This document shows, one piece after another, positions 5,232-32,000 of a DNA stretch of 32,000 nucleotides. The DNA is taken from assembly GCA_964588325.1 (NCBI GenBank), contig CAZPOR010000002.1:242919-274918 (forward strand), given 5' to 3'. Made by a program: the position numbers and the translations under genes. The notes beneath the pieces were generated by a model, which was given only the letters and a program-made list of their open reading frames with translations, did no database searches and had not been told where the DNA came from. The stretch comes from an uncultured Desulfurivibrio sp. GTDB lineage: Bacteria > Desulfobacterota > Desulfobulbia > Desulfobulbales > Desulfurivibrionaceae. Position 1 is the stretch's first letter. The number at the start of each line of letters is the position of its first letter.

Positions 5232-8200
5232 ATGTCCCGAAAAATGGTCACCATTGACGGCAACCAGGCGTGCACCCATGTGGCTTACGCCACCAGTGAG
5301 ATTATTACCATCTATCCCATCACCCCCTCCACTCCCATGGCGGCAGAGTCCGACACCAAGGCGAGTGCCGCCCGGAAAAATATCTGGGGTTCAGTGCCGG
5401 TCGTAACCCAGATGCAGTCCGAGGGCGGAGTGGCCGGATCCCTGCACGGCTCTCTTACCACCGGTGCGCTCTGCACCACCTTTTCCGCTTCCCAGGGACT
5501 CATGCTTTTGTTGCCCAACATGAACAAGATTGCCGGAGAGCTGACCTCCACGGTTTTTCATGTCACCGCCCGCTCCCTGGCTTATCAGGGATTGTCCATA
5601 TTCGGCGATCACAGCGATGTCATGGCTGCCCGCCAGACCGGCTGGGCCATGCTCTGCTCCCAGAATGTCCAGGAGGCCCAGGACATGGCGCTCATCGCCA
5701 CCCAGGCAACGCTCAAATCACGCATTCCCTTCATGCATTTTTTTGACGGTTTCCGCACTTCCCATGAGATTCAGAAGATAGAGCAGCTCAGCGAAGAGGA
5801 TATGCGGGAGATGATAGACGAGGAGTTGATTCTTGCGCACCGCAAGCGGGGTCTTTCTCCGGATCGCCCCATGATGCGCGGAACAGCCCAGAATCCAGAT
5901 GTCTATTTCACCGGACGGGAAACAGTAAACAAGTTTTATAATGCTGCGCCGGGAATTGTTCAGGAAACCATGGACAGATTCGGCAAGTTGACCGGCCGCA
6001 AGTACCATCTTTTTGATTATTTCGGCGCCCGTGATGCGGAGCAGGTGATTATTATCATGGGTTCTGGAAGCGAGACGGCGCGGGCCACGGTTGAGCACCT
6101 GATCGTCCAGGGCAGGAAGGTCGGACTGATTGTGGTTCGCCTTTTCCGGCCTTTTGATTCTGCCGCCTTGATTGGCGCTTTGCCGGACAGCGTGAAGCAG
6201 GTTACGGTGCTTGACCGGACCAAAGAGCCCGGCGCGGCCGGAGAACCGCTGTATCAGGATGTGCGCACGGTGATCGGAGAAGCGCTTGACGAGGGCGTTT
6301 TGTCTGCGGTTCCGGTTATTTTTTCCGGCCGTTATGGTTTGGGCTCTGCGGAGTTTACCCCGGCCATGGTCAAGGCGGTGTTTGACAACATGGGTGCGGC
6401 AAGGCCGAAAAACCATTTCTGCGTTGGGCCTGATGATGATGTGGCCTTTACCAGTCTCGCCTATGATCCTTCCTATGACATCGAGGGCAAAGATGTCTGC
6501 CGGGCGATGTTCTATGGCCTTGGAGCGGATGGCACCGTGGGCGCCAACAAGAACACCATCAAGATCATCGGTACGGAAACGGACAACAGCGCCCAGGGAT
6601 ATTTTGTCTACGATTCGAAAAAATCCGGATCCATCACCACCAGTCATCTCCGTTTTGGCAAGAACAAAATCATGGCGCCGTACCTGATCAATAAGGCCAA
6701 TTTTGTCGCCTGTCATAATTTCACCTTTCTCGATAAGTACGACATGCTGACCAACATCGAGGAGGGAGGCACCTTCCTGCTGACCACGACCTACAAAAAA
6801 GATGAGGTCTGGGGTCATATGCCGGGCAGGGTACAGCAGCAGATCATCGACAAAAAACTTAAATTTTATGTCATTGATGCTCTCAGTCTGGCCGCGGCCA
6901 TCGGTCTGGGCGCCAGGATCAACATGATCATGCAGACCGCTTTTTTCCTGATTTCCGATATCATCAGCCAAGATGAGGCGGTGGCCTCCATCAAGGGGGC
7001 GATTAAAAAGACGTACGGGGTCAAGGGAGACAAGGTGGTGAACATGAACTACGCCGCAGTGGATGCGGCCCTGGAAAATATTGCCCAGGTGACAGTGCCG
7101 AAAACCGCCGGCGGTCACGCCATTCCTCCCACCGTGCCGGAAAACGCCCCCACTTTTGTCAAGGAAGTCTCCGCCCGCATGATCGAGGGGAAAGGCGCCT
7201 CCATCAAGGTTTCCCAAATGCCTGCCGACGGCACCTGGCCCACGGCGACCACCCAGTATGAAAAACGCAACATTGCGGTGCAGGTGCCCGTGTGGGAGGC
7301 AGAAACCTGTATCCAGTGCGGACAGTGTTCCCTGGTGTGCCCGCATGCGGCTATTCGGATGAAAATCGTCGAAGGCGCGGCCCTGGTCAAGGCTCCGAAA
7401 ACCTTGCAGAGCGCTGCCGCAGTGGGGAAGCAGTTTGAGGGACGACGGTGCGTCATTTCCGTCGCCACCGAGGATTGCAACGGCTGCAGCCATTGTTTTC
7501 AGGTGTGCCCGGCCAGGCATAAGGATGTGGCTGGCAACAAAACCGAGCAGAAAGCCCTGGAAATGGTCGCCAATACCGAGGAAGTCCGGCAGCGCGAGTC
7601 CGGGAATTACGCGTTTTTTCTCTCCCTTCCGGAACTCGATTATGCGGAGGTCAATCCGGCGACCATCAAGGGAAGTCAGCTCATGCGCCCGTTGTTTGAA
7701 TATCCCGGCGCCTGTGTCGGTTGCGGGGAGACGCCGTACATCAAATTAGCCACCCAACTGTTCGGTGACCGGATGTACATTGCCAATGCCACAGGGTGTT
7801 CATCGATCTACGGCGGCAACCTGCCCACCACCCCTTACTGCAAAAGAAGCGACGGCCGGGGGCCGGTCTGGTCCAATTCTCTTTTTGAGGACAACGCGGA
7901 GTTCGGTCTTGGCATGCGTCAGACCATAAACAAGCTTGGTTCGCAGGCTGTTGAACTGTTGCATGAAGCAGTAGCGACCGGGGGTGTTGATAAAAGCGCC
8001 ATGGATGCATTGCTTGAAGCCCCCCAGAGTAGTCAGCTTGAAATCGAAGCCCAGCGGGAGAGGGTTGCCGAGCTCAAGGAAAAGCTGGCCGCAGGCGACT
8101 TTGCCAAGGCGGCGCAATTGCAGCATGTGGCTGATTATCTGGTGAAAAAATCGGTATGGATCTTTGGCGGCGACGGCTGGGCCTATGATATCGGCTACGG

Positions 8201-8804
8201 CGGCCTGGATCATGTTCTGGCCTCAGGCGAGAACGTCAATGTGCTTATCATGGACACCGAGGTCTATTCCAACACCGGAGGGCAAATGTCCAAGTCAACC
8301 CCCCGAGCGGCGACCGCCCAGTTCGCCGCAGGTGGCAAACGGATGCCCAAGAAGGATATCGGGATGATTTTTGCCACCTATGGGAATGTCTATGTTGCCA
8401 AGATATCCATGGGCGCGAATCCGGCTCAGGTGGTCAAGGCGTTCAACGAGGCGGAGGCGTATAACGGGCCATCGCTGATCATCGCCTACTCACACTGCAT
8501 AAACCACGGGATCAATATGGCCCTGGGGCTTGATCAGCAGAAAAAAGCGGTGGCATGCGGGCACTGGCCTCTCTACCGTTATAATCCGCAGCTTGAGGAA
8601 GCGGGGAAAAATCCGCTTGTGATCGATTCTCCAGCCCCGTCAATCCCTTTTGCTGACTATGCCATGAATGAAAACAGATACCGGGCATTGAAGCTCACTA
8701 ATCCAGGGATGTTTGATGAGTTAATGAGGCTGGCTCAGAAAGATGTGGATAAGGGCTGGAAATTTTTGCTGGGCAGGGCAATGAGCCTTGAGCCCGCTCA
8801 ATAA
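5232..8804 (+). CDS. nifJ: Pyruvate:ferredoxin (flavodoxin) oxidoreductase, single-polypeptide NifJ/POR type (1190 aa)
   Basis: The N-terminus [34 protein letters not shown] is typical. Two ferredoxin-type motifs are present ([12 protein letters not shown] and [12 protein letters not shown]). The TPP-binding region reads [17 protein letters not shown]. The length is typical of homodimeric PFOR, and an AGGAGA RBS precedes the start. Confidence 0.95.
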   Translation: [1190 protein letters not shown]

Positions 8805-28019: not shown

Positions 28020-28727
28020 GTGAAAGACATTCCCTTGAAAGAACGGATCATCCTGGCCCTTGATGTGGAAACCCCGGAACAGGCCAGGGAGCTGGTGAAA
28101 AAAACCGAGTCCCACCTGAGTTTTTACAAGGTCGGACTACAGCTTTTCATGGCCGACTGGTTCCAGACCGTTGACTGGCTGGTTGCTCGGGGCCACAAGG
28201 TGATGCTGGATCTCAAATTTTTCGATATCCCGGAGACGGTCAAGCTGGCCGTGGCCCAACTGAGAAGCCACGGAGTGAGCCTGGCCACGGTCCACGGCAA
28301 TGACCCGATCATCCGGGCGGCCCTAGAGGAAAAAGGCGAGATCAAGCTCTTGGCCGTGACCGTGCTTACCAGTTTCGGTGAAGAAGACCTGCGGGCCATG
28401 GGCATGACCCAGTCCATCGAGGATCTCGTTTATTTCCGGGCCAAACGGGCGCTAGAACTGGGCTGCGACGGGGTGGTTTCCTCCGGCCTTGAGGCCGCCC
28501 GCTTGCGTGGCGGGCTTGGCGAGAAGCTGTTGCTGGTCACGCCGGGGATCAGGCCTGGGGCCAACGTGCTGGACACGGCCGACGATCAGACCCGGATCAT
28601 GACCGCAGGCCGCGCCATCATAAGCGGCGCCGACCAGGTGGTCGTGGGCCGTCCCATCTCCAAGGCCGCTGATCCCATCGCGGTTATCGAAGCCATGCAG
28701 CAGGAGATTGCCCAGGCTCTTCGATAA
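28020..28727 (+). CDS. pyrF: Orotidine 5'-phosphate decarboxylase
   Basis: IILALDV...A..LV........YKVG..LF........L...G.KVMLDLKFFDIPETV...VHG...........LLAVTVLTS...PGIRP....DDQ.R are PyrF catalytic motifs (DxKxxD). The start is GTG. Confidence 0.9.
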   Translation: MKDIPLKERIILALDVETPEQARELVKKTESHLSFYKVGLQLFMADWFQTVDWLVARGHKVMLDLKFFDIPETVKLAVAQLRSHGVSLATVHGNDPIIRAALEEKGEIKLLAVTVLTSFGEEDLRAMGMTQSIEDLVYFRAKRALELGCDGVVSSGLEAARLRGGLGEKLLLVTPGIRPGANVLDTADDQTRIMTAGRAIISGADQVVVGRPISKAADPIAVIEAMQQEIAQALR

Positions 28728-28880
28728 GACAAGAGCCTGGCGGGTACCTGGGCGTCAGAATTTCCTTCCCCTTCCGTTTGTGTGCGCGGAAAACAGCGGC
28801 TCATTTTTTATGGGCGAACACGCTCCGCTGTCTTCAAAGGCCGACAGGACAAGCATCCTGGGCAACTTTTTCTCCTCCTC

Positions 28881-28909
28881 TTTACATCCGGTTTTTCAGG
28901 GCATATAGT
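28881..28909 (+). promoter_or_regulatory. Sigma70-type promoter candidate for the small-protein/redox cluster
   Basis: TTTACA (28881-28886), a 17-nt spacer, then TATAGT (28904-28909). It lies 45 nt upstream of ATG 28954. Confidence 0.45.
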
Positions 28910-28953
28910 ACAAGATATGAAGTCTGAACAGCAGAACAACAGGAGGATGCGCC

Positions 28954-29202
28954 ATGCACACCAAAGAAGAGCTGTGTGAGAAGATCAAGGCTGTTTTTCC
29001 GGAGATCGGCGCCTGCGGCATCGATCTCAAAGTTGATTACGACAAGAACAACAAGGCCTGGGTCGTTGATCTCAAGAAAGACAAACATGAGCTCAAGACC
29101 TTCCTGGAAGACTCCGAAGCGCAACAGTGCATGGACGGCAAGCAATGTGTGTCTCTGGGCCTGCAGATCGGCCAGCTCAGGAAGAATATTGAGCAACTGT
29201 AG
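28954..29202 (+). CDS. Hypothetical small protein A (82 aa, four Cys)
   Basis: A strong AGGAGG RBS lies 6 nt before the ATG. GC3-rich codon usage matches neighbouring genes. I cannot assign a family. The 138-aa antisense ORF 28882-29298 has no comparable RBS. Confidence 0.6.
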   Translation: MHTKEELCEKIKAVFPEIGACGIDLKVDYDKNNKAWVVDLKKDKHELKTFLEDSEAQQCMDGKQCVSLGLQIGQLRKNIEQL

Positions 29203-29346
29203 CGGTCCATTTTTGGTGCATAAATAGACAAAGCGGATCGTTTCTCTTTGTAGAGGACAAAAAGGAGGTGAGTCCAGAAAACACACTGCATATTTCATGA
29301 TACGGGCCAGTCATAATCCGACAACTTCAAACAGAGGGGTGGAGCC

Positions 29347-29649
29347 ATGGACGTTAAAGATTATTGCAGGAATGTGGATACGGAACTCACGGCGTGGAAA
29401 GCAAAACTGTACAACGTCATCCGCCAGATGGATAAACTGCCGACAGGCGACAAGCAGCGGGTGTATGAAAAGATCAACGGCCTGAACATCGTCATGACAG
29501 AGCTTGATGATCGACTTGACCAGTTGCGGACTGCATGTCCAACGGAATGGAGCCCGGCGCGGAAAGAAATCAGTAGTAAGATGGCGGATCTGGGGAGCAA
29601 GTATGAAGAGACAGCGCGCGAGTTTTTCGACTATGAGATCGGCGGCTGA
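29347..29649 (+). CDS. Hypothetical small helical protein B (100 aa, C-P-T-E-W motif, ends in GG)
   Basis: A GAGGGGTGGAG RBS region precedes the ATG. The residue pattern is heptad-like and charged, and the codon usage looks coding. No family recognised. Confidence 0.6.
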   Translation: MDVKDYCRNVDTELTAWKAKLYNVIRQMDKLPTGDKQRVYEKINGLNIVMTELDDRLDQLRTACPTEWSPARKEISSKMADLGSKYEETAREFFDYEIGG

Positions 29650-29829
29650 CCTCCTGTTTTTTTGTGGGATGCAGGTTGAGTAACAGCATAATTTTAGCGG
29701 CAAACTTCACAGGGAGAATCTCCATGATAACCAGAGGGTCCCGGATTGCAGGGATGACTGCCCGCATCCGGGGCCTGTGCCGACTGTGAGAATTTTTATC
29801 ATTCGCTAGCCACACAAGGAGGGACAACC

Positions 29830-30399
29830 ATGACGGAAAAAATCCAATGGCGTACGGAAATGGACGATGCCCTGTGTCTGGGGCAGAAGGCGGGGAAACC
29901 GATCCTGCTCGATTTTTTCAACCCCAACTGAATTGGCTGCCAACAGATGGATACAGTTACGTATCCCGAAAGCAAGGTTGTCCGGTTCATCGAGGAAAAT
30001 TTTATCCCGCTGCGGCTTTTGTCCGACAGCAAGCCCCATTCGGAGAAATACAACGTCAAGTGGACGCCCACCCTGATAACCTTGAGCCCGGAAGCCCAGG
30101 AACATCACCGGACCGTGGGTTTTTTGGGGCCGGAGGAGTTGATTCCCTCGCTCCTGCTGGGGCTGGGCAAATACCATTTTGAAAATGACCGTTTTGACGA
30201 GGCCCTGTCCCGCCTTGAGCAACTGGTTGACGGGTATGGCCAAAGCGGCAGCGTCCCGGAGGCCATTTTTTTGTGCGGCGTCTGCCGTTACAAGCGCTCG
30301 CATGATCCAAAGCCGCTGAAGGCCGCCTACGAAAAATTGAGCGCGGCTTTTCCAGACAGCGAATGGACCAAGCGCGCCTATCCCTATCGGCTCCTGTGA
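29830..30399 (+). CDS. Thioredoxin-fold (Thioredoxin_7-like) protein with TPR-like C-terminus; in-frame TGA at 29929-29931 read as selenocysteine (U34-I-G-C37)
   Basis: ATG 29830 is preceded by AAGGAGGG at a 6-nt spacing. Codons 1-33 give MTEKIQWRTEMDDALCLGQKAGKPILLDFFNPN, then TGA, then IGCQQMDTVTYPESKVVRFIEENFIPLRL, in the same frame as track ORF 29947-30399. The segment GKPILLDFxxxxCxxCxxMD...V..FI...F is the classic thioredoxin-like active-site neighbourhood, and the TGA sits at the first Cys position. The hairpin GGATAC-agttac-GTATCC (29949-29966) lies 17 nt after the TGA. Confidence 0.75.
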
Positions 30400-30409
30400 G
30401 CCCCTGTTC

Positions 30410-30449
30410 GCGGAAAAGTCTGGGCCGGCTCGGCTTTAGGCTTTTCCGC
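30410..30449 (+). terminator. Hairpin after the selenoprotein gene (weak terminator or processing site)
   Basis: GCGGAAAAG (30410-30418) pairs perfectly with CTTTTCCGC (30441-30449) around a 22-nt loop. Only a short, displaced T4 run follows (30457-30460). Confidence 0.3.
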
Positions 30450-30502
30450 CGCCCCGTTTTGTAAACGATTTCCTGCCGCCGGGGGGAGGATCAGGAAAGC
30501 CC

Positions 30503-31393
30503 ATGCAAGAAAACCGTTACGATTGCATCATCATCGGGGCAGGGCCTGGGGGGTTGCAGGCTGCCATCCATCTTGCCCGCTATAACCGGAAGGTCATCCT
30601 CCTCGATCACGGCGGCGGCAGGACACGCCATGCCCTGCATATCGAGAACTATCTCGGTCTTGAACGCACCTCCGGGAAAGAACTTGTTGATACCGGCATC
30701 AGGCAGATCACATCCTTCGGCGCCGAGTTCAGACGCGAGGATGTTGCCTCGGTTCGGGTCGAGAACGGGTTTGTTGTGACTACGGAAAAGGGGCGTTACC
30801 AAGCGCCCTATGCCATTGTTTCCGCCGGCGTTGTCGAGCATCCGCCGAAAATCAAGGGGATGAACAGATTTTTCAGCCGGACGGTTTTTACCTGCGTTGA
30901 CTGCGACGGCTACCGCACCACCGGCAAGAAGCTTGTCATTCTCGGCGATTCCCTCGAAGCCCTGCGCCTCGCCTTTGCCATGCGCCAGATGTTCACCCCG
31001 GATATCATGCTCATCCTGCCGGCTGGTGTTCTGCCGGACGATCATGCCGATTTGCTGGCCGAGGACGGCATTGGTTTCCTGGCCGGGGCTCCTCAGGAAT
31101 TTCTTGGCCAAACAACGTTGCGCGGCGTGAAGCTGGCAGACGGGCGGGAGATTGCCTGCCAGGTGGTCATGCTCAGTTATGAGTACACCGTGAACGATTC
31201 CTGTCTGGCAGGGCTTGCACTTGCGCGGGAAGGCAGCGGCCGCGAGCTTGCAACCGACTCTGCCTGCGAAACCTCTGTTAAAAACCTCTTTGCCTTGGGT
31301 GCCCTCAAGGCGGGCAAGGCCCAGGCTATTATTGCCGCCGGTCAGGGCGCCATGGTGGGCATCGAGATCAACCGCCGGCTGCTGAATCTGTGA
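30503..31393 (+). CDS. Thioredoxin-reductase-like flavoprotein (FAD motif and CxxC present, NADPH-binding motifs absent)
   Basis: The N-terminal YDCIIIGAGPGGLQAAIHLAR is the FAD GxGxxG motif. The redox-active FTCVDCDG corresponds to TrxB CATCDG. Where TrxB has GGGNSA...HRRD, this protein reads VILGDSLEA...MLILPAG. Confidence 0.85.
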   Translation: MQENRYDCIIIGAGPGGLQAAIHLARYNRKVILLDHGGGRTRHALHIENYLGLERTSGKELVDTGIRQITSFGAEFRREDVASVRVENGFVVTTEKGRYQAPYAIVSAGVVEHPPKIKGMNRFFSRTVFTCVDCDGYRTTGKKLVILGDSLEALRLAFAMRQMFTPDIMLILPAGVLPDDHADLLAEDGIGFLAGAPQEFLGQTTLRGVKLADGREIACQVVMLSYEYTVNDSCLAGLALAREGSGRELATDSACETSVKNLFALGALKAGKAQAIIAAGQGAMVGIEINRRLLNL

Positions 31394-31434
31394 GCAGCGC
31401 GGCATAAACCCTCATCCCGCACAGGAGGAACATC

Positions 31435-31731
31435 ATGAAACGTCAGGTCGAAATGGAAGAAACCATGCTGCGTGCGCATCGGGAGTTCCTGGAGCATCTT
31501 GAGAAATCCCTCGGCTTGCTGGCGAAGGATATTGATGAAGCCAAGGAGATGACGCATATCTGCACCGATGAGTGGTGTCGGGCCACCGAGGGTGTGCTTG
31601 ACGAGTTGGCCAAGGTCATTTTTGCGGTCAGCGAACCGCGCTGGCTCTCCACGGAAGACTCGAAAAAGATCAGCGGGTTGCGCCATCGCATGCACGATCT
31701 GTACGCCCGCTACAAAGCAGTCAAAAAATAA
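31435..31731 (+). CDS. Hypothetical small helical protein E (98 aa, C-T-D-E-W-C motif)
   Basis: An AGGAGGA RBS lies 6 nt before the ATG, and the codon usage looks coding. It sits 15 nt upstream of the oxidoreductase gene. No family recognised. Confidence 0.6.
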   Translation: MKRQVEMEETMLRAHREFLEHLEKSLGLLAKDIDEAKEMTHICTDEWCRATEGVLDELAKVIFAVSEPRWLSTEDSKKISGLRHRMHDLYARYKAVKK

Positions 31732-31746
31732 CCCCGGGAGCCACTC

Positions 31747-32000
31747 ATGTCACTGGACATCCATTTGCTTATTGGCGGCGAGGCCGGCCAGGGGTTGGTG
31801 ACCATAGGCCAGTTGCTCAGCAAGGCCCTGGTCCGGGCTGGGTATGAGGTTTTTGTCAGCCAGAGCTATCATTCGAGAATTCGCGGCGGACACAACACCT
31901 TTGCCATCCGGCTGGGCGCGGGGCCATTTTTTGCGCCCCGCGTGTCCATTGATATACTGGTGGCGCTCAACGCCGAAACCGTGGCGCTGCATCGGGGGCA
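31747..32000 (+). CDS. 2-oxoacid:ferredoxin oxidoreductase, gamma-type domain (3'-truncated by the window edge)
   Basis: My own translation from ATG 31747 is MSLDIHLLIGGEAGQGLVTIGQLLSKALVRAGYEVFVSQSYHSRIRGGHNTFAIRL... This matches the G-G-x-G-G-Q-G...Y.S..RGG pattern of POR/KOR/VOR gamma subunits. It is absent from the ORF track because no stop lies within the window. Confidence 0.8.
   Translation, partial: MSLDIHLLIGGEAGQGLVTIGQLLSKALVRAGYEVFVSQSYHSRIRGGHNTFAIRLGAGPFFAPRVSIDILVALNAETVALHRG

What the first reader, a model, noticed from the sequence alone, without database searches (positions are those of the whole stretch)
28881..32000. Candidate previously undescribed redox module: small Cys proteins, UxxC seleno-thioredoxin-fold protein, NADPH-motif-less TrxR-like reductase, small CxxEWC protein and 2-oxoacid:ferredoxin oxidoreductase
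Six consecutive same-strand genes follow a good sigma70-type promoter (TTTACA-17-TATAGT). Taken together they suggest an electron path: 2-oxoacid oxidation, then ferredoxin, then the flavin/dithiol reductase (30503-31393), then the selenol/thiol thioredoxin-fold protein (29830-30399), then unknown targets. The three unassigned small proteins (A, B, E) are possible targets or adaptors. I know of no characterised system with this composition. Caveats:
- The intergenic gaps are 100-230 bp.
- A 9-bp hairpin (30410-30449) may separate transcription units.
- The oxidoreductase is truncated by the window edge.

Co-transcription and functional linkage are therefore hypotheses, not observations.
Basis: inference. 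Interest (0 to 1): 0.65.

Follow-up and report, generated by a model that had tools for sequence, protein, structure and literature searches.

The report
Redox-stress gene cluster next to KorAB
The six genes are real and include a genuine selenocysteine thioredoxin-like protein and an NADPH-independent thioredoxin-reductase-like enzyme beside a 2-oxoacid:ferredoxin oxidoreductase, but they form a loose, family-specific gene neighbourhood that resembles known ferredoxin-dependent thioredoxin systems rather than a new kind of redox module.

Summary

- **Selenoprotein C.** The TGA in C (29929-31) is kept in all 18 orthologues found. It is also kept in 26 of the 28 distinct sequences, down to 56% identity. 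The other two are Cys forms. A synonymous-site-invariant hairpin follows 17 nt downstream.
- **Reductase D.** D lacks both NADPH motifs. Its nearest solved relatives are the NAD(P)H-independent enzymes GvFFTR/DTR, DDOR and HlmI.
- **Linkage to korAB.** D lies within 6 kb of korA, on the same strand, in 25 of 26 species where D is at least 60% identical. This holds in only 3 of 54 more distant loci. The usual arrangement is D-E-korAB with small gaps.
- **The other genes are not fixed partners.**
  - C is next to D in 17 of 26 species. Elsewhere C occurs widely without D.
  - B is present in 7 of 26.
  - D itself is replaced by DsrC-like and rubrerythrin-like genes in two metagenome relatives.
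  - Distant homologues of A and E sit next to korAB, rubrerythrin or Usp genes without D.

The best reading is a Desulfurivibrionaceae-specific redox and oxidative-stress neighbourhood. Its core is a probable ferredoxin-type (FFTR-like) disulfide reductase co-located with KorAB. C is a plausible acceptor but this is unproven. This is a variant of a known kind, of modest interest.

The parts
28881..28909 (+). Sigma-70-type promoter TTTACA-17-TATAGT upstream of A
   Evidence: 10 of 12 matches; 4 sites found against 1.3 +/- 1.5 in shuffles; the -35 positions (T52, T53, A55, C56) and -10 positions (T75, A76, T80) are invariant in 11 orthologous loci, and a conserved AGGAGG lies before the ATG.
28954..29202 (+). 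Gene A: 82-aa protein of an uncharacterised family; C59 and C65 invariant, C8 and C21 usually kept
   Evidence: No Pfam or NCBIfam family. 263 representative clusters. The AF2 model has pLDDT 87 with an alpha-beta3-alpha2 topology and no significant PDB match.
29347..29649 (+). Gene B: 100-aa helical protein, sub-threshold match to the sll1863 stress-protein family; variable insertion
   Evidence: NF052504, 28.7 bits against a cut-off of 35; present in only 7 of 26 related species and absent from the closest isolate (L004).
29830..30399 (+). Gene C: cytoplasmic thioredoxin-fold + TPR selenoprotein, active site U-I-G-C (Sec codon TGA at 29929-29931)
   Evidence: Thioredoxin_2, 42.6 bits. TGA conserved, with 78-99% identity across it in orthologues; kept down to 56% in L138, 62% in L090 (Desulfomonilaceae) and 65% in L091 (Thermodesulfobacteriota MAG). 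The Cys forms L094 (TGC) and L095 (TGT) align at the same position. No N-terminal hydrophobic stretch (sequence).
29949..29966 (+). SECIS-like hairpin GGAUAC-AGUUAC-GUAUCC, starting 17 nt after the UGA
   Evidence: part of the MFE structure; the synonymous sites of GAT-ACA/GCA/GCG-GTT-ACG-TAT are invariant in all Sec forms, while flanking codons vary. The A-to-G variant keeps a G-U pair. The stem is degraded in the Cys forms.
30410..30449 (+). Conserved hairpin H1 between C and D (terminator, attenuator or stability element)
   Evidence: about 18-bp stem. AU-to-UA in 5 sequences, AU-to-CG in 3 and GC-to-AU in 2. The U tract after it is weak and not conserved.
30469..30498 (+). Conserved hairpin H2 (UUUCCUG...CAGGAAA) whose 3' arm overlaps the likely ribosome-binding site of D
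   Evidence: 11 pairs, nearly invariant in 10 loci, with only G-U-compatible changes. No Rfam match.
30503..31393 (+). Gene D: low-Mr thioredoxin-reductase-like flavoprotein with GAGPGG FAD motif and CVDCDG redox centre, and no NADPH motifs
   Evidence: best PDB relatives are 5n0j (GvDTR/FFTR, 121 bits), 4ntd (HlmI, 115), 5jri (DDOR, 114), 5nii (DvTRi, 85) and 6gnc/6gna (clostridial FFTR, 82/66). LGDSLEAL stands in place of GGGxxAxE, and there is no HRR (sequence).
31435..31731 (+). Gene E: 98-aa three-helix-bundle protein with invariant CTxEWC, SxPRW and H15/H87; family seen only in Desulfobulbales
   Evidence: 157 hits, all named 'hypothetical'; invariant residues; pLDDT 92; only generic three-helix bundles, with E at least 0.14.
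31747..32000 (+). 5' end of korA (2-oxoacid:ferredoxin oxidoreductase alpha, gamma+alpha fusion); korB follows beyond the window
   Evidence: POR, 63 bits; OAFO_sf, 78 bits on 84 aa; full genes of 568 aa and at least 277 aa in L001.

Best explanation
The region is a Desulfurivibrionaceae-specific neighbourhood of thiol/selenol-redox and stress genes placed in front of the central-metabolic korAB. It is not a fixed six-gene machine.

Its firmest unit is D-E-korA-korB, which is probably one transcript. D is an NAD(P)H-independent member of the low-Mr thioredoxin-reductase family. [quoted passage not shown] In that scheme, ferredoxin reduced by KorAB feeds one-electron steps to D's FAD. The full-length PFOR at 5232-8804 in the same window could supply reduced ferredoxin as well. 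The FAD then reduces the CVDC disulfide, which reduces a disulfide or selenosulfide in a thioredoxin-fold partner.

The nearest candidate partner is C, a cytoplasmic Trx-fold/TPR selenoprotein with a UIGC active site. C sits 103 bp upstream, in front of a conserved structured leader.

A, B and E are small proteins of unknown biochemistry. In other genomes their homologues keep company with korAB, rubrerythrin-like, DsrC-like and Usp genes, which points to an oxidative-stress or redox-homeostasis role.

**Shown here**
- Gene structures and motifs.
- Sec decoding signals in C.
- The synteny statistics.

**Inferred**
- The electron donor of D.
- The acceptor of D.
- Co-transcription.
- Any role for A, B and E.
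For: - **D belongs to the NAD(P)H-independent TR branch.** Its top PDB relatives are GvDTR/FFTR, HlmI and DDOR. The redox centre is of the CxxCDG type, as in TRs. The GGGxxAxE and HRRD motifs, as defined in PMC5627308, are absent (sequence).
- **The FFTR paradigm is established.** Reduced ferredoxin passes electrons to FAD, then to the S-S, then to Trx (PMC8154056). There are trxA-FFTR operons with PFOR as the suggested ferredoxin renewer (PMC10880999).
- **D and korAB stay together.** korA is within 6 kb on the same strand in 25 of 26 species with D at least 60% identical. This survives rearrangements: D-E-korAB, D-korAB, D-E-[DsrC-like/Rbr/NDH-2]-E'-korAB, and korAB...D. The D-E and E-korA gaps are 41 and 15 bp.
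- **C is a real selenoprotein.** It directly precedes D in 17 of 26 species.
- **No separate promoter for D was found.** There is no promoter-like match between C and D, but there is a conserved leader with two hairpins.
- **Neighbours of distant homologues share a stress theme.** Distant A homologues lie next to korAB (6 loci), C (3), E (2), Usp (7) or rubrerythrin-like genes (5). Distant E lies next to rubrerythrin, with korAB-DsrC 3 kb upstream. Nitrospirota D homologues lie next to a DUF255 Trx-like gene (11 loci), DJ-1/PfpI (8) and Hsp20 (5).
Against: - **All linkage is within one family,** so shared ancestry alone could explain it. Below 60% identity, D has unrelated neighbours. korA is near in only 3 of 54 such loci, and in two of the three on the opposite strand.
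- **In L025 co-transcription is impossible.** An opposite-strand gene and a cNMP-binding gene separate korB from D.
- **C family members elsewhere have no D neighbour**. In one MAG, C and D are on different contigs (L091 against L025).
- **D is dispensable at this locus.** It is absent while A, C, E and korAB stay in L113 and L117.
- **D lacks the C-terminal aromatic tail.** The closest solved relative, GvFFTR, needs this tail to bind ferredoxin (PMC8154056).
- **D scores about equally against DDOR** (function unknown) and against the dithiol oxidase HlmI.
- **No partner genes are consistently near D.** No classical thioredoxin lies within 10 kb of D in any of the 80 genome loci. Ferredoxin-like hits lie within 10 kb of D in six loci, within 1.2 kb only in L018 and L048, so there is no recurrent ferredoxin partner.
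- **The conserved FAD-motif Asp is replaced.** GxFAAGD reads LFALGALKAG in D.
Confidence: 0.5

Rival explanations
1. The neighbourhood is inherited synteny only. A, B and C are independent stress or redox genes. D is a general-purpose disulfide reductase that serves distant partners. korAB is plain central metabolism. The neighbourhood does not encode any electron path between these proteins.
For: - Linkage is confined to one family and decays at about 60% identity of D.
- B, C, D and E are each missing from some related loci.
- Homologues of C, E and A occur alone or in other contexts.
- Gaps of 103-226 bp and a conserved hairpin separate A, B, C and D.
- The flanking genes are housekeeping genes: kdsA, kdsC, lptC and pyrF upstream, recQ downstream.
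Against: - D stays beside korAB through at least four different gene orders.
- The pairs A-korAB, A-C, A-E, E-rubrerythrin and korAB-DsrC-like recur in more distant Desulfobulbales, where the gene order has otherwise changed. That is more than simple order conservation would predict.
- The D-E and E-korA gaps are 41 and 15 bp.
Confidence: 0.3
2. The thiol/selenol proteins serve KorAB rather than drawing on it. D, with C and perhaps A or E, reductively reactivates or protects the oxygen-sensitive 2-oxoacid:ferredoxin oxidoreductase after oxidative stress. This would resemble thioredoxin-dependent activation of PFOR in Desulfovibrio.
For: - korAB is the constant element around which A, C, D, E, DsrC-like and rubrerythrin-like genes gather across Desulfobulbales.
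- Rubrerythrin, Usp, DJ-1/PfpI and Hsp20 neighbours of the homologues indicate an oxidative-stress theme.
- Thioredoxin 1 targeting PFOR in D. vulgaris is prior knowledge (Pieulle et al. 2011). That paper is cited in PMC5627308 for the DvTR/DvTrx systems. The PFOR-target finding itself is recalled from memory and was not read here.
Against: - No regulatory disulfide is known in two-subunit KorAB enzymes, and none was examined here.
- D still needs an electron donor, which this model does not supply.
- Most D and C family members are not near any OFOR.
Confidence: 0.12
3. D is not a thioredoxin reductase at all. It is either a DDOR-like flavoprotein of another function or a dithiol oxidase like HlmI, DepH or GliT, acting on a small molecule or on the Cys pairs of A or E.
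For: - D scores almost equally against DDOR (114 bits) and HlmI (115 bits) as against GvFFTR (121 bits).
- No classical Trx gene lies near D in any of the 80 genome loci.
- D lacks the FFTR C-terminal tail and the FAD-motif Asp (PMC8154056).
Against: - D has the TR-type CxxCDG (CVDCDG), not the CPYCHG seen in the aligned HlmI.
- Oxidases that use O2 are implausible in these anaerobes.
- No biosynthetic genes are nearby.
- DDOR also carries a C-terminal tail (recalled from memory, not checked here), which D lacks.
Confidence: 0.08

Closest known systems
Ferredoxin-dependent flavin thioredoxin reductase systems (FFTR): clostridial CpFFTR/CaFFTR, the C. difficile trxA1-trxB1 operon, and cyanobacterial GvFFTR (formerly DTR)
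   Same: - Low-Mr TrxR fold with a FAD GxGxxG motif and a CxxCDG redox disulfide.
- No GGGxxAxE or HRRD NADPH motifs.
- A Trx-fold gene directly upstream of the reductase gene.
- A 2-oxoacid:ferredoxin oxidoreductase as a plausible ferredoxin regenerator.
- GvFFTR is the best PDB match (121 bits).
   Different: - D lacks the C-terminal aromatic tail that is essential for ferredoxin binding in GvFFTR.
- D is only distantly related to clostridial FFTRs (66-82 bits).
- The upstream Trx-fold protein is not a WCGPC thioredoxin. It is a 189-aa Thioredoxin_2/_7 + TPR selenoprotein with UIGC.
- The reductase is operonic with korAB rather than with trxA.
- The electron donor has not been tested.
DvTRi, the NAD(P)H-independent thioredoxin reductase of Desulfovibrio vulgaris (PDB 5NII; PMC5627308)
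   Same: - A TR homologue from an anaerobic deltaproteobacterium that cannot bind NADPH.
- Linked to oxidative and disulfide stress.
- Electron donor unknown.
   Different: - TRi is defined by TQ/NGK replacing HRRD and by GEGxxAxN. D has neither.
- D scores lower against 5nii (85 bits) than against GvDTR, DDOR or HlmI.
DDOR (Slr0600) and the dithiol oxidases HlmI, DepH and GliT
   Same: Same NADPH-independent clade by sequence score (114, 115 and 97 bits).
   Different: - HlmI, as aligned, has CPYCHG rather than CxxCDG; the same motif in DepH is recalled from memory, not aligned here. These oxidases work with O2 in natural-product clusters.
- DDOR has a C-terminal tail (recalled from memory) and no known substrate.
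Predicted Trx-fold selenoproteins, e.g. [quoted passage not shown]
   Same: - PF13098 domain.
- UxxC active site.
- Common in Deltaproteobacteria.
- Cys-containing homologues exist.
   Different: - I could not verify that C is the same family as the listed example.
- C has a C-terminal TPR domain and no signal peptide.
- No NCBIfam selenoprotein model reaches its cut-off on C.
- Databases hold C as truncated 150-aa 'hypothetical' or 'TPR' proteins.
Two-subunit 2-oxoacid:ferredoxin oxidoreductase KorAB (TIGR03710 OAFO_sf)
   Same: KorA is a gamma+alpha fusion with POR and POR_N domains. KorB carries TPP_enzyme_C.
   Different: Nothing unusual was seen in the enzyme itself. Only its neighbours are unusual.

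Membership tests
FFTR (ferredoxin-dependent flavin thioredoxin reductase) | Low-Mr TrxR two-domain fold with an N-terminal FAD GxGxxG motif | tested here: met
   GAGPGG at residues 11-16. Pyr_redox_2, 81 bits over residues 6-282. TIGR01292 TRX_reduct, 119 bits, below its equivalog cut-off of 343.
FFTR (ferredoxin-dependent flavin thioredoxin reductase) | Redox-active CxxC in the second domain (CxxCDG) | tested here: met
   C131-V-D-C134-D-G is invariant in 20 homologues. It aligns with CLICDG of GvDTR and CMICDG of DDOR.
FFTR (ferredoxin-dependent flavin thioredoxin reductase) | Absence of the NADPH motifs GGGxxAxE and VxxxHRRDxxR | tested here: met
   LGDSLEAL stands at the first site. No HRR occurs anywhere in the second domain (sequence). 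Motifs are as defined in PMC5627308.
FFTR (ferredoxin-dependent flavin thioredoxin reductase) | Reduced by ferredoxin and reduces a thioredoxin | not testable with these tools
   This is biochemical. The only indirect support is the korAB adjacency in 25 of 26 related species.
FFTR, cyanobacterial class (GvFFTR/DTR) | [quoted passage not shown] | tested here: not met
   D ends at residue 296 (…EINRRLLNL). The alignment to 5n0j stops at residue 311 of 351. All 20 homologues end at the same point. The requirement is described in PMC8154056.
FFTR system (trxA-FFTR operon) | Dedicated thioredoxin encoded next to the reductase | tested here: inconclusive
   No classical TrxA lies within 10 kb of D in any of the 80 genome loci. 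The Trx-fold selenoprotein C lies directly upstream in 17 of 26 close species, but never outside that family.
DvTRi-type NAD(P)H-independent TR | TQ/NGK motif in place of HRRD, and GEGxxAxN | tested here: not met
   Neither motif is present in D (sequence). 5nii scores 85 bits, below GvDTR, HlmI and DDOR. Motifs are from PMC5627308.
HlmI/DepH/GliT dithiol oxidases | CPYCHG-type active site, in a natural-product gene cluster | tested here: not met
   D has CVDCDG, whereas HlmI aligned shows CPYCHG. No biosynthetic genes are in the neighbourhood.
Bacterial selenoprotein | In-frame UGA conserved in orthologues, with coding conservation on both sides | tested here: met
   TGA in 18 of 18 orthologues at 78-99% identity. 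Also kept in homologues down to 56% identity: L138 (56%), L137 (62%), L090 (Desulfomonilaceae, 62%) and L091 (Thermodesulfobacteriota MAG, 65%).
Bacterial selenoprotein | SECIS stem-loop shortly downstream of the UGA | tested here: met
   A 6-bp stem with a 6-nt loop at 29949-29966, starting 17 nt after the UGA. Its synonymous sites are invariant in all Sec forms and relaxed in the Cys forms. No Rfam model matched, so the call rests on structure and conservation.
Bacterial selenoprotein | Cys-containing homologues aligned at the Sec position | tested here: met
   L094 (Geobacteraceae) has TGC and L095 has TGT at the same column. Many 189-aa full-length homologues exist.
Bacterial selenoprotein | The genome encodes selA, selB, selC and selD | not tested
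   Not in the 32-kb window. No tRNA was found in it.
Thioredoxin-like fold (Pfam Thioredoxin_2, PF13098) | Score above the Pfam gathering threshold | tested here: met
   42.6 bits against 27. Thioredoxin_7 scores 32.8 and DUF255 30.4, both against 27.
KorAB-type 2-oxoacid:ferredoxin oxidoreductase | Gamma+alpha fused subunit followed by a TPP-binding beta subunit | tested here: met
   The window fragment scores POR 63 bits and TIGR03710 78 bits on 84 aa. The full 568-aa gene with POR and POR_N is in L001. The orthologous beta subunit carries TPP_enzyme_C and PFO_beta_C.
sll1863 stress-response family (gene B) | NCBIfam NF052504 above its cut-off | tested here: not met
   28.7 bits against a cut-off of 35, with full-length alignment 4-93 to 3-92 of 93. 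B is a likely distant relative but not a confirmed member.
   The set is found only where D is at least 60% identical (Desulfurivibrionaceae). In the 54 more distant D loci, the counts are korA 3, C 0, E 0, A 1 and B 2.

The most novel reading that the evidence does not exclude
D founds a third, tail-less class of ferredoxin-linked (or KorAB-coupled) flavin disulfide reductases in Desulfobulbales and Nitrospirota. Its dedicated acceptor in Desulfurivibrionaceae would be the Sec-containing Trx/TPR protein C. That would give a 2-oxoacid-driven, NADPH-independent selenol/thiol relay, with the small Cys proteins A and E as adaptors or targets. A conserved RBS-sequestering leader in front of D would control the system.
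Probability: 0.15. Interest if true: 0.6.

Novelty: new variant of a known kind. Interest (0 to 1): 0.35.

Why it matters
- **A testable link between carbon metabolism and thiol redox control.** How strict anaerobes without glutathione power thiol repair is only partly understood. If D takes electrons from KorAB-reduced ferredoxin, sulfur-cycling Desulfobulbales would couple 2-oxoacid oxidation directly to disulfide or selenosulfide reduction, bypassing NADPH. Hydrosulfovibrio ferrireducens CB1MN is a cultured relative that carries the locus, so the idea can be tested.
- **A database correction.** The C family is a widespread selenoprotein. Public databases mostly store it as a truncated 150-aa 'hypothetical' or 'TPR' protein.
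- **Small proteins worth a family description.** A and E are strongly conserved and uncharacterised. They recur near korAB and rubrerythrin genes.

Tried and rejected
- **B and E as paralogues.** They share a C(P/T)xEW motif, but hhalign gave probability 0.4% and E 0.16. Rejected.
- **Fold searches.** E is a confident three-helix bundle that matches only generic bundles such as BAG domains and mite allergens, with E at least 0.14. A's model has no significant PDB match; the best has E 0.038 and TM 0.31. Neither gives a functional lead.
- **Rfam scan of 28700-32000.** It found only a spurious IRES hit. There is no known SECIS or riboswitch model here.
- **Classical TrxA or clostridial-type ferredoxin near D.** I searched all 80 genome loci. 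No Trx was found, and ferredoxin-like hits appeared in six loci (within 1.2 kb of D only in L018 and L048), so there is no consistent ferredoxin partner.
- **Context of distant C homologues** (Desulfomonilaceae, a Thermodesulfobacteriota MAG, Geobacteraceae and one metagenome contig). No D was adjacent.
- **Context of distant E homologues.** They lie in sugar-metabolism or rubrerythrin neighbourhoods, with no D.
- **Weak 'C-like' hits beside Nitrospirota D genes.** These turned out to be roughly 650-aa DUF255 (YyaL-type) proteins, not C orthologues.
- **Naive ORF clustering.** In these GC-rich loci it produced several clusters of antisense shadow ORFs, which I ignored.
- **Literature.** A search for Desulfurivibrio with thioredoxin reductase and oxoglutarate returned nothing.

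Full report
**1. Observation check**

- A, 28954-29202.
- B, 29347-29649.
- C, 29830-30399, with an in-frame TGA at 29929-31.
- D, 30503-31393.
- E, 31435-31731.
- F, from 31747 to the window edge.

An identical 8.5-kb public contig (L001) continues past the window. It shows that F is a 568-aa KorA-type gamma+alpha fusion followed by KorB. It also shows that kdsA, kdsC, lptC and pyrF lie upstream.

C matches Thioredoxin_2, Thioredoxin_7 and DUF255, plus TPR repeats. D matches Pyr_redox_2 and is TrxR-like. F matches POR and OAFO_sf. A and E match nothing. B gives a sub-threshold, full-length match to the sll1863 stress-protein family.

The promoter TTTACA-17-TATAGT (28881-28909) is the best + strand promoter-like site in the region. 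Its hexamers are conserved in 11 orthologous loci.

The gaps before A, B, C and D are 226, 144, 180 and 103 bp. The D-E and E-F gaps are only 41 and 15 bp.

**2. C is a genuine selenoprotein**

The TGA is kept in 18 of 18 orthologues, with 78-99% amino-acid identity on both sides. It is also kept in homologues down to 56% identity: L138 (56%), L137 (62%), L090 from Desulfomonilaceae (62%) and L091 from a Thermodesulfobacteriota MAG (65%). A Geobacteraceae homologue and one other have TGC or TGT at the same column.

Starting 17 nt downstream of the UGA is the hairpin GGAUAC-AGUUAC-GUAUCC (29949-29966). Its synonymous codon positions are invariant in every Sec form, while neighbouring codons vary. 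The single A-to-G change keeps a G-U pair. The stem decays in the Cys forms.

C has no signal peptide, so it is cytoplasmic.

The family is large, with 1355 hits. Databases mostly hold it as 150-aa fragments that start after the TGA, named 'hypothetical' or 'TPR protein'. A PF13098 UxxC 'thiol:disulfide interchange protein' is already on the list of predicted prokaryotic selenoproteins (PMC13188914). I could not verify that it is the same family as C.

**3. D belongs to the NAD(P)H-independent branch of low-Mr thioredoxin reductases**

D has the FAD motif GAGPGG and the TR-type redox centre CVDCDG. It reads LGDSLEAL where NADPH-dependent enzymes have GGGxxAxE, and it has no HRRD (motifs as defined in PMC5627308).

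Its best solved relatives are listed below.

| PDB entry | Protein | Bits |
|---|---|---|
| 5n0j | GvDTR, now called FFTR | 121 |
| 4ntd | HlmI | 115 |
| 5jri | DDOR | 114 |
| 5nii | DvTRi | 85 |
| 6gnc / 6gna | clostridial FFTR | 82 / 66 |

D differs from the named classes in three ways:
- It lacks the C-terminal aromatic tail that GvFFTR needs to bind ferredoxin (PMC8154056).
- It lacks the TQ/NGK signature of DvTRi.
- It lacks the CPYCHG site seen in the aligned dithiol oxidase HlmI.

So D works most like an FFTR but is not a demonstrable member of any characterised class.

**4. Synteny around D**

I scanned one genome per species and mapped all six proteins onto the 80 loci found. The table gives the number of loci with each gene near D.

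| Gene near D | D at least 60% identical (26 species) | D 44-56% identical (54 loci) |
|---|---|---|
| korA | 25 | 3 |
| E | 20 | 0 |
| A | 17 | 1 |
| C | 17 | 0 |
| B | 7 | 2 |

The 26 close species are Desulfurivibrionaceae and near relatives. For them the criterion was within 6 kb of D; every hit was on the same strand except A in L024. The 54 more distant loci are other Desulfobulbales, Nitrospirota and others. For them the criterion was within 10 kb.

The recurrent neighbours in Nitrospirota are a DUF255 Trx-like protein (11 loci), endonuclease III (11), DJ-1/PfpI (8) and Hsp20 (5).

Within the family the gene order varies:
- D-E-korAB is the commonest order.
- D-korAB occurs in L018, L020 and L074.
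- A abuts D, with C absent, in L017-L019.
- korAB precedes D in L021, L022 and L025. In L025 an opposite-strand gene and a cNMP-binding gene intervene.
- DsrC-like, rubrerythrin-like and NDH-2 genes are inserted between D/E and korAB in L012, L014 and L015.
- Those same genes replace D in L113 and L117.
- They follow korB in L017, L024, L074 and L120.

No classical thioredoxin lies within 10 kb of D in any locus. Ferredoxin-like hits lie within 10 kb in six loci, but within 1.2 kb only in L018 and L048.

**5. The small proteins and C outside the family**

- **C.** Homologues in four other lineages have no D neighbour.
- **E.** The family has 157 hits, all unnamed and all apparently from Desulfobulbales. 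It carries invariant CTxEWC, SxPRW and two His residues. In distant genomes E stands alone, or lies beside a rubrerythrin with korAB-DsrC about 3 kb upstream. E is a confident three-helix bundle without an informative structural match.
- **A.** The family has 263 representative clusters, with C59 and C65 invariant. A metagenome scan found distant A genes in several contexts:
  - directly after korAB in 6 loci;
  - next to C in 3 loci;
  - convergent with E in 2 loci;
  - near Usp genes in 7 loci;
  - near rubrerythrin-like genes in 5 loci.
  None of these has D. A's predicted fold has no significant PDB match.
- **B and E are not homologous**.

**6. The leader in front of D**

A second conserved hairpin (30469-30498) pairs UUUCCUG with CAGGAAA, and its 3' arm overlaps D's probable ribosome-binding site. 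No promoter-like site lies between C and D.

Two readings remain open. C and D may be read through with attenuation, or D may be under translational control. Neither is shown.

**7. Interpretation**

The firmest unit is D-E-korAB. D's membership of the NAD(P)H-independent TR branch and its persistent proximity to KorAB fit the established FFTR logic: reduced ferredoxin, then FAD, then CxxC, then a Trx-fold protein (PMC8154056). Known examples include trxA-FFTR operons with PFOR as the ferredoxin renewer (PMC10880999).

C is the obvious candidate acceptor in this clade. However, comparative data do not tie C to D beyond one family. D can be absent from the locus, and D lacks the ferredoxin-binding tail of its closest solved relative.

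The broader pattern is that korAB in Desulfobulbales attracts a changing set of redox and oxidative-stress genes: A, C, D, E, DsrC-like, rubrerythrin-like and NDH-2.

My confidence in each reading is:
- An FFTR-like, ferredoxin-linked reading within a loose stress neighbourhood: about 0.5.
- Mere inherited synteny: about 0.3.
- Protection or reactivation of KorAB: about 0.12.
- A non-TR function for D: about 0.08.

**8. Novelty and score**

The pieces are new members of known kinds. As a system it would be a variant of FFTR-type thioredoxin systems, with a Sec-Trx/TPR acceptor and korAB operon linkage. The claim of a previously undescribed module is therefore only partly supported.

Interest is 0.35. 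Points in its favour:
- a mis-annotated selenoprotein family;
- an uncharacterised tail-less TR clade;
- two conserved orphan small-protein families;
- a conserved leader;
- a cultured relative available for testing.

Points against:
- all functional links are inferred;
- the linkage is lineage-restricted.

Noticed in passing
window 30469-30498 (and 30410-30449): A conserved two-hairpin leader lies in front of D. The second hairpin (UUUCCUG...CAGGAAA) overlaps the likely ribosome-binding site of D and is nearly invariant in 10 orthologous loci. This may be translational control or attenuation. No Rfam family matches.
   Followed up: partly
L012, L014, L015, L107, L110, L112, L113, L117, L017, L024, L074, L120 (region between C/D and korAB, or after korB): The korAB flank is a hotspot. 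DsrC-like (PF04358), rubrerythrin-like (PF02915) and NDH-2-like genes are inserted here. They replace D in L113 and L117, or follow korB in other loci. E is duplicated in L014, with a fragment in L012 and L107.
   Followed up: partly
window 29830-30399; P0241-P0360: Public databases hold the C family mostly as 150-aa proteins that start after the TGA, named 'hypothetical' or 'tetratricopeptide repeat protein'. This is a systematically truncated selenoprotein annotation. No NCBIfam model reaches its cut-off on the full-length protein.
   Followed up: partly
window 30503-31393 (residues ~262-271): The D family replaces the conserved Asp of the TR FAD motif GxFAAGD. D reads LFALGALKAG, and homologues read GAL, GAM, GTL or GPL. 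GvDTR and DDOR keep the GD.
   Followed up: no
L039, L042, L045, L053, L055, L067, L070, L075, L081 and others (Nitrospirota): D homologues of 44-48% identity are often divergently arranged with a roughly 650-aa DUF255/YyaL-type thioredoxin-domain protein (11 loci). Endonuclease III (11), DJ-1/PfpI (8) and Hsp20 (5) are also common neighbours.
   Followed up: partly
window 5232-8804: A full-length single-chain pyruvate:ferredoxin oxidoreductase (TIGR02176, 1754 bits) lies 23 kb upstream of korA. It is a second possible source of reduced ferredoxin. The window also holds SulP, GAPDH, ThiH, PurH, PyrG, KdsA, KdsC, LptC and PyrF.
   Followed up: no
P0448 (1212 aa), P0453 (1099 aa): Two very long proteins in the representative library contain 12 and 9 tandem matches to the 82-aa A domain.
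   Followed up: no
L018 9354-9524: In one Desulfobulbaceae MAG a 2x[4Fe-4S] ferredoxin-like ORF lies directly upstream of A-D-korAB. It is the closest ferredoxin hit to D in any locus; L048 has the only other within 1.2 kb.
   Followed up: no
L071 3320-4081: In a Nitrospirota contig, an A homologue (44% identical, keeping only C59 and C65) lies beside a rubrerythrin-family gene, 1.4 kb from a D homologue on the opposite strand.
   Followed up: partly
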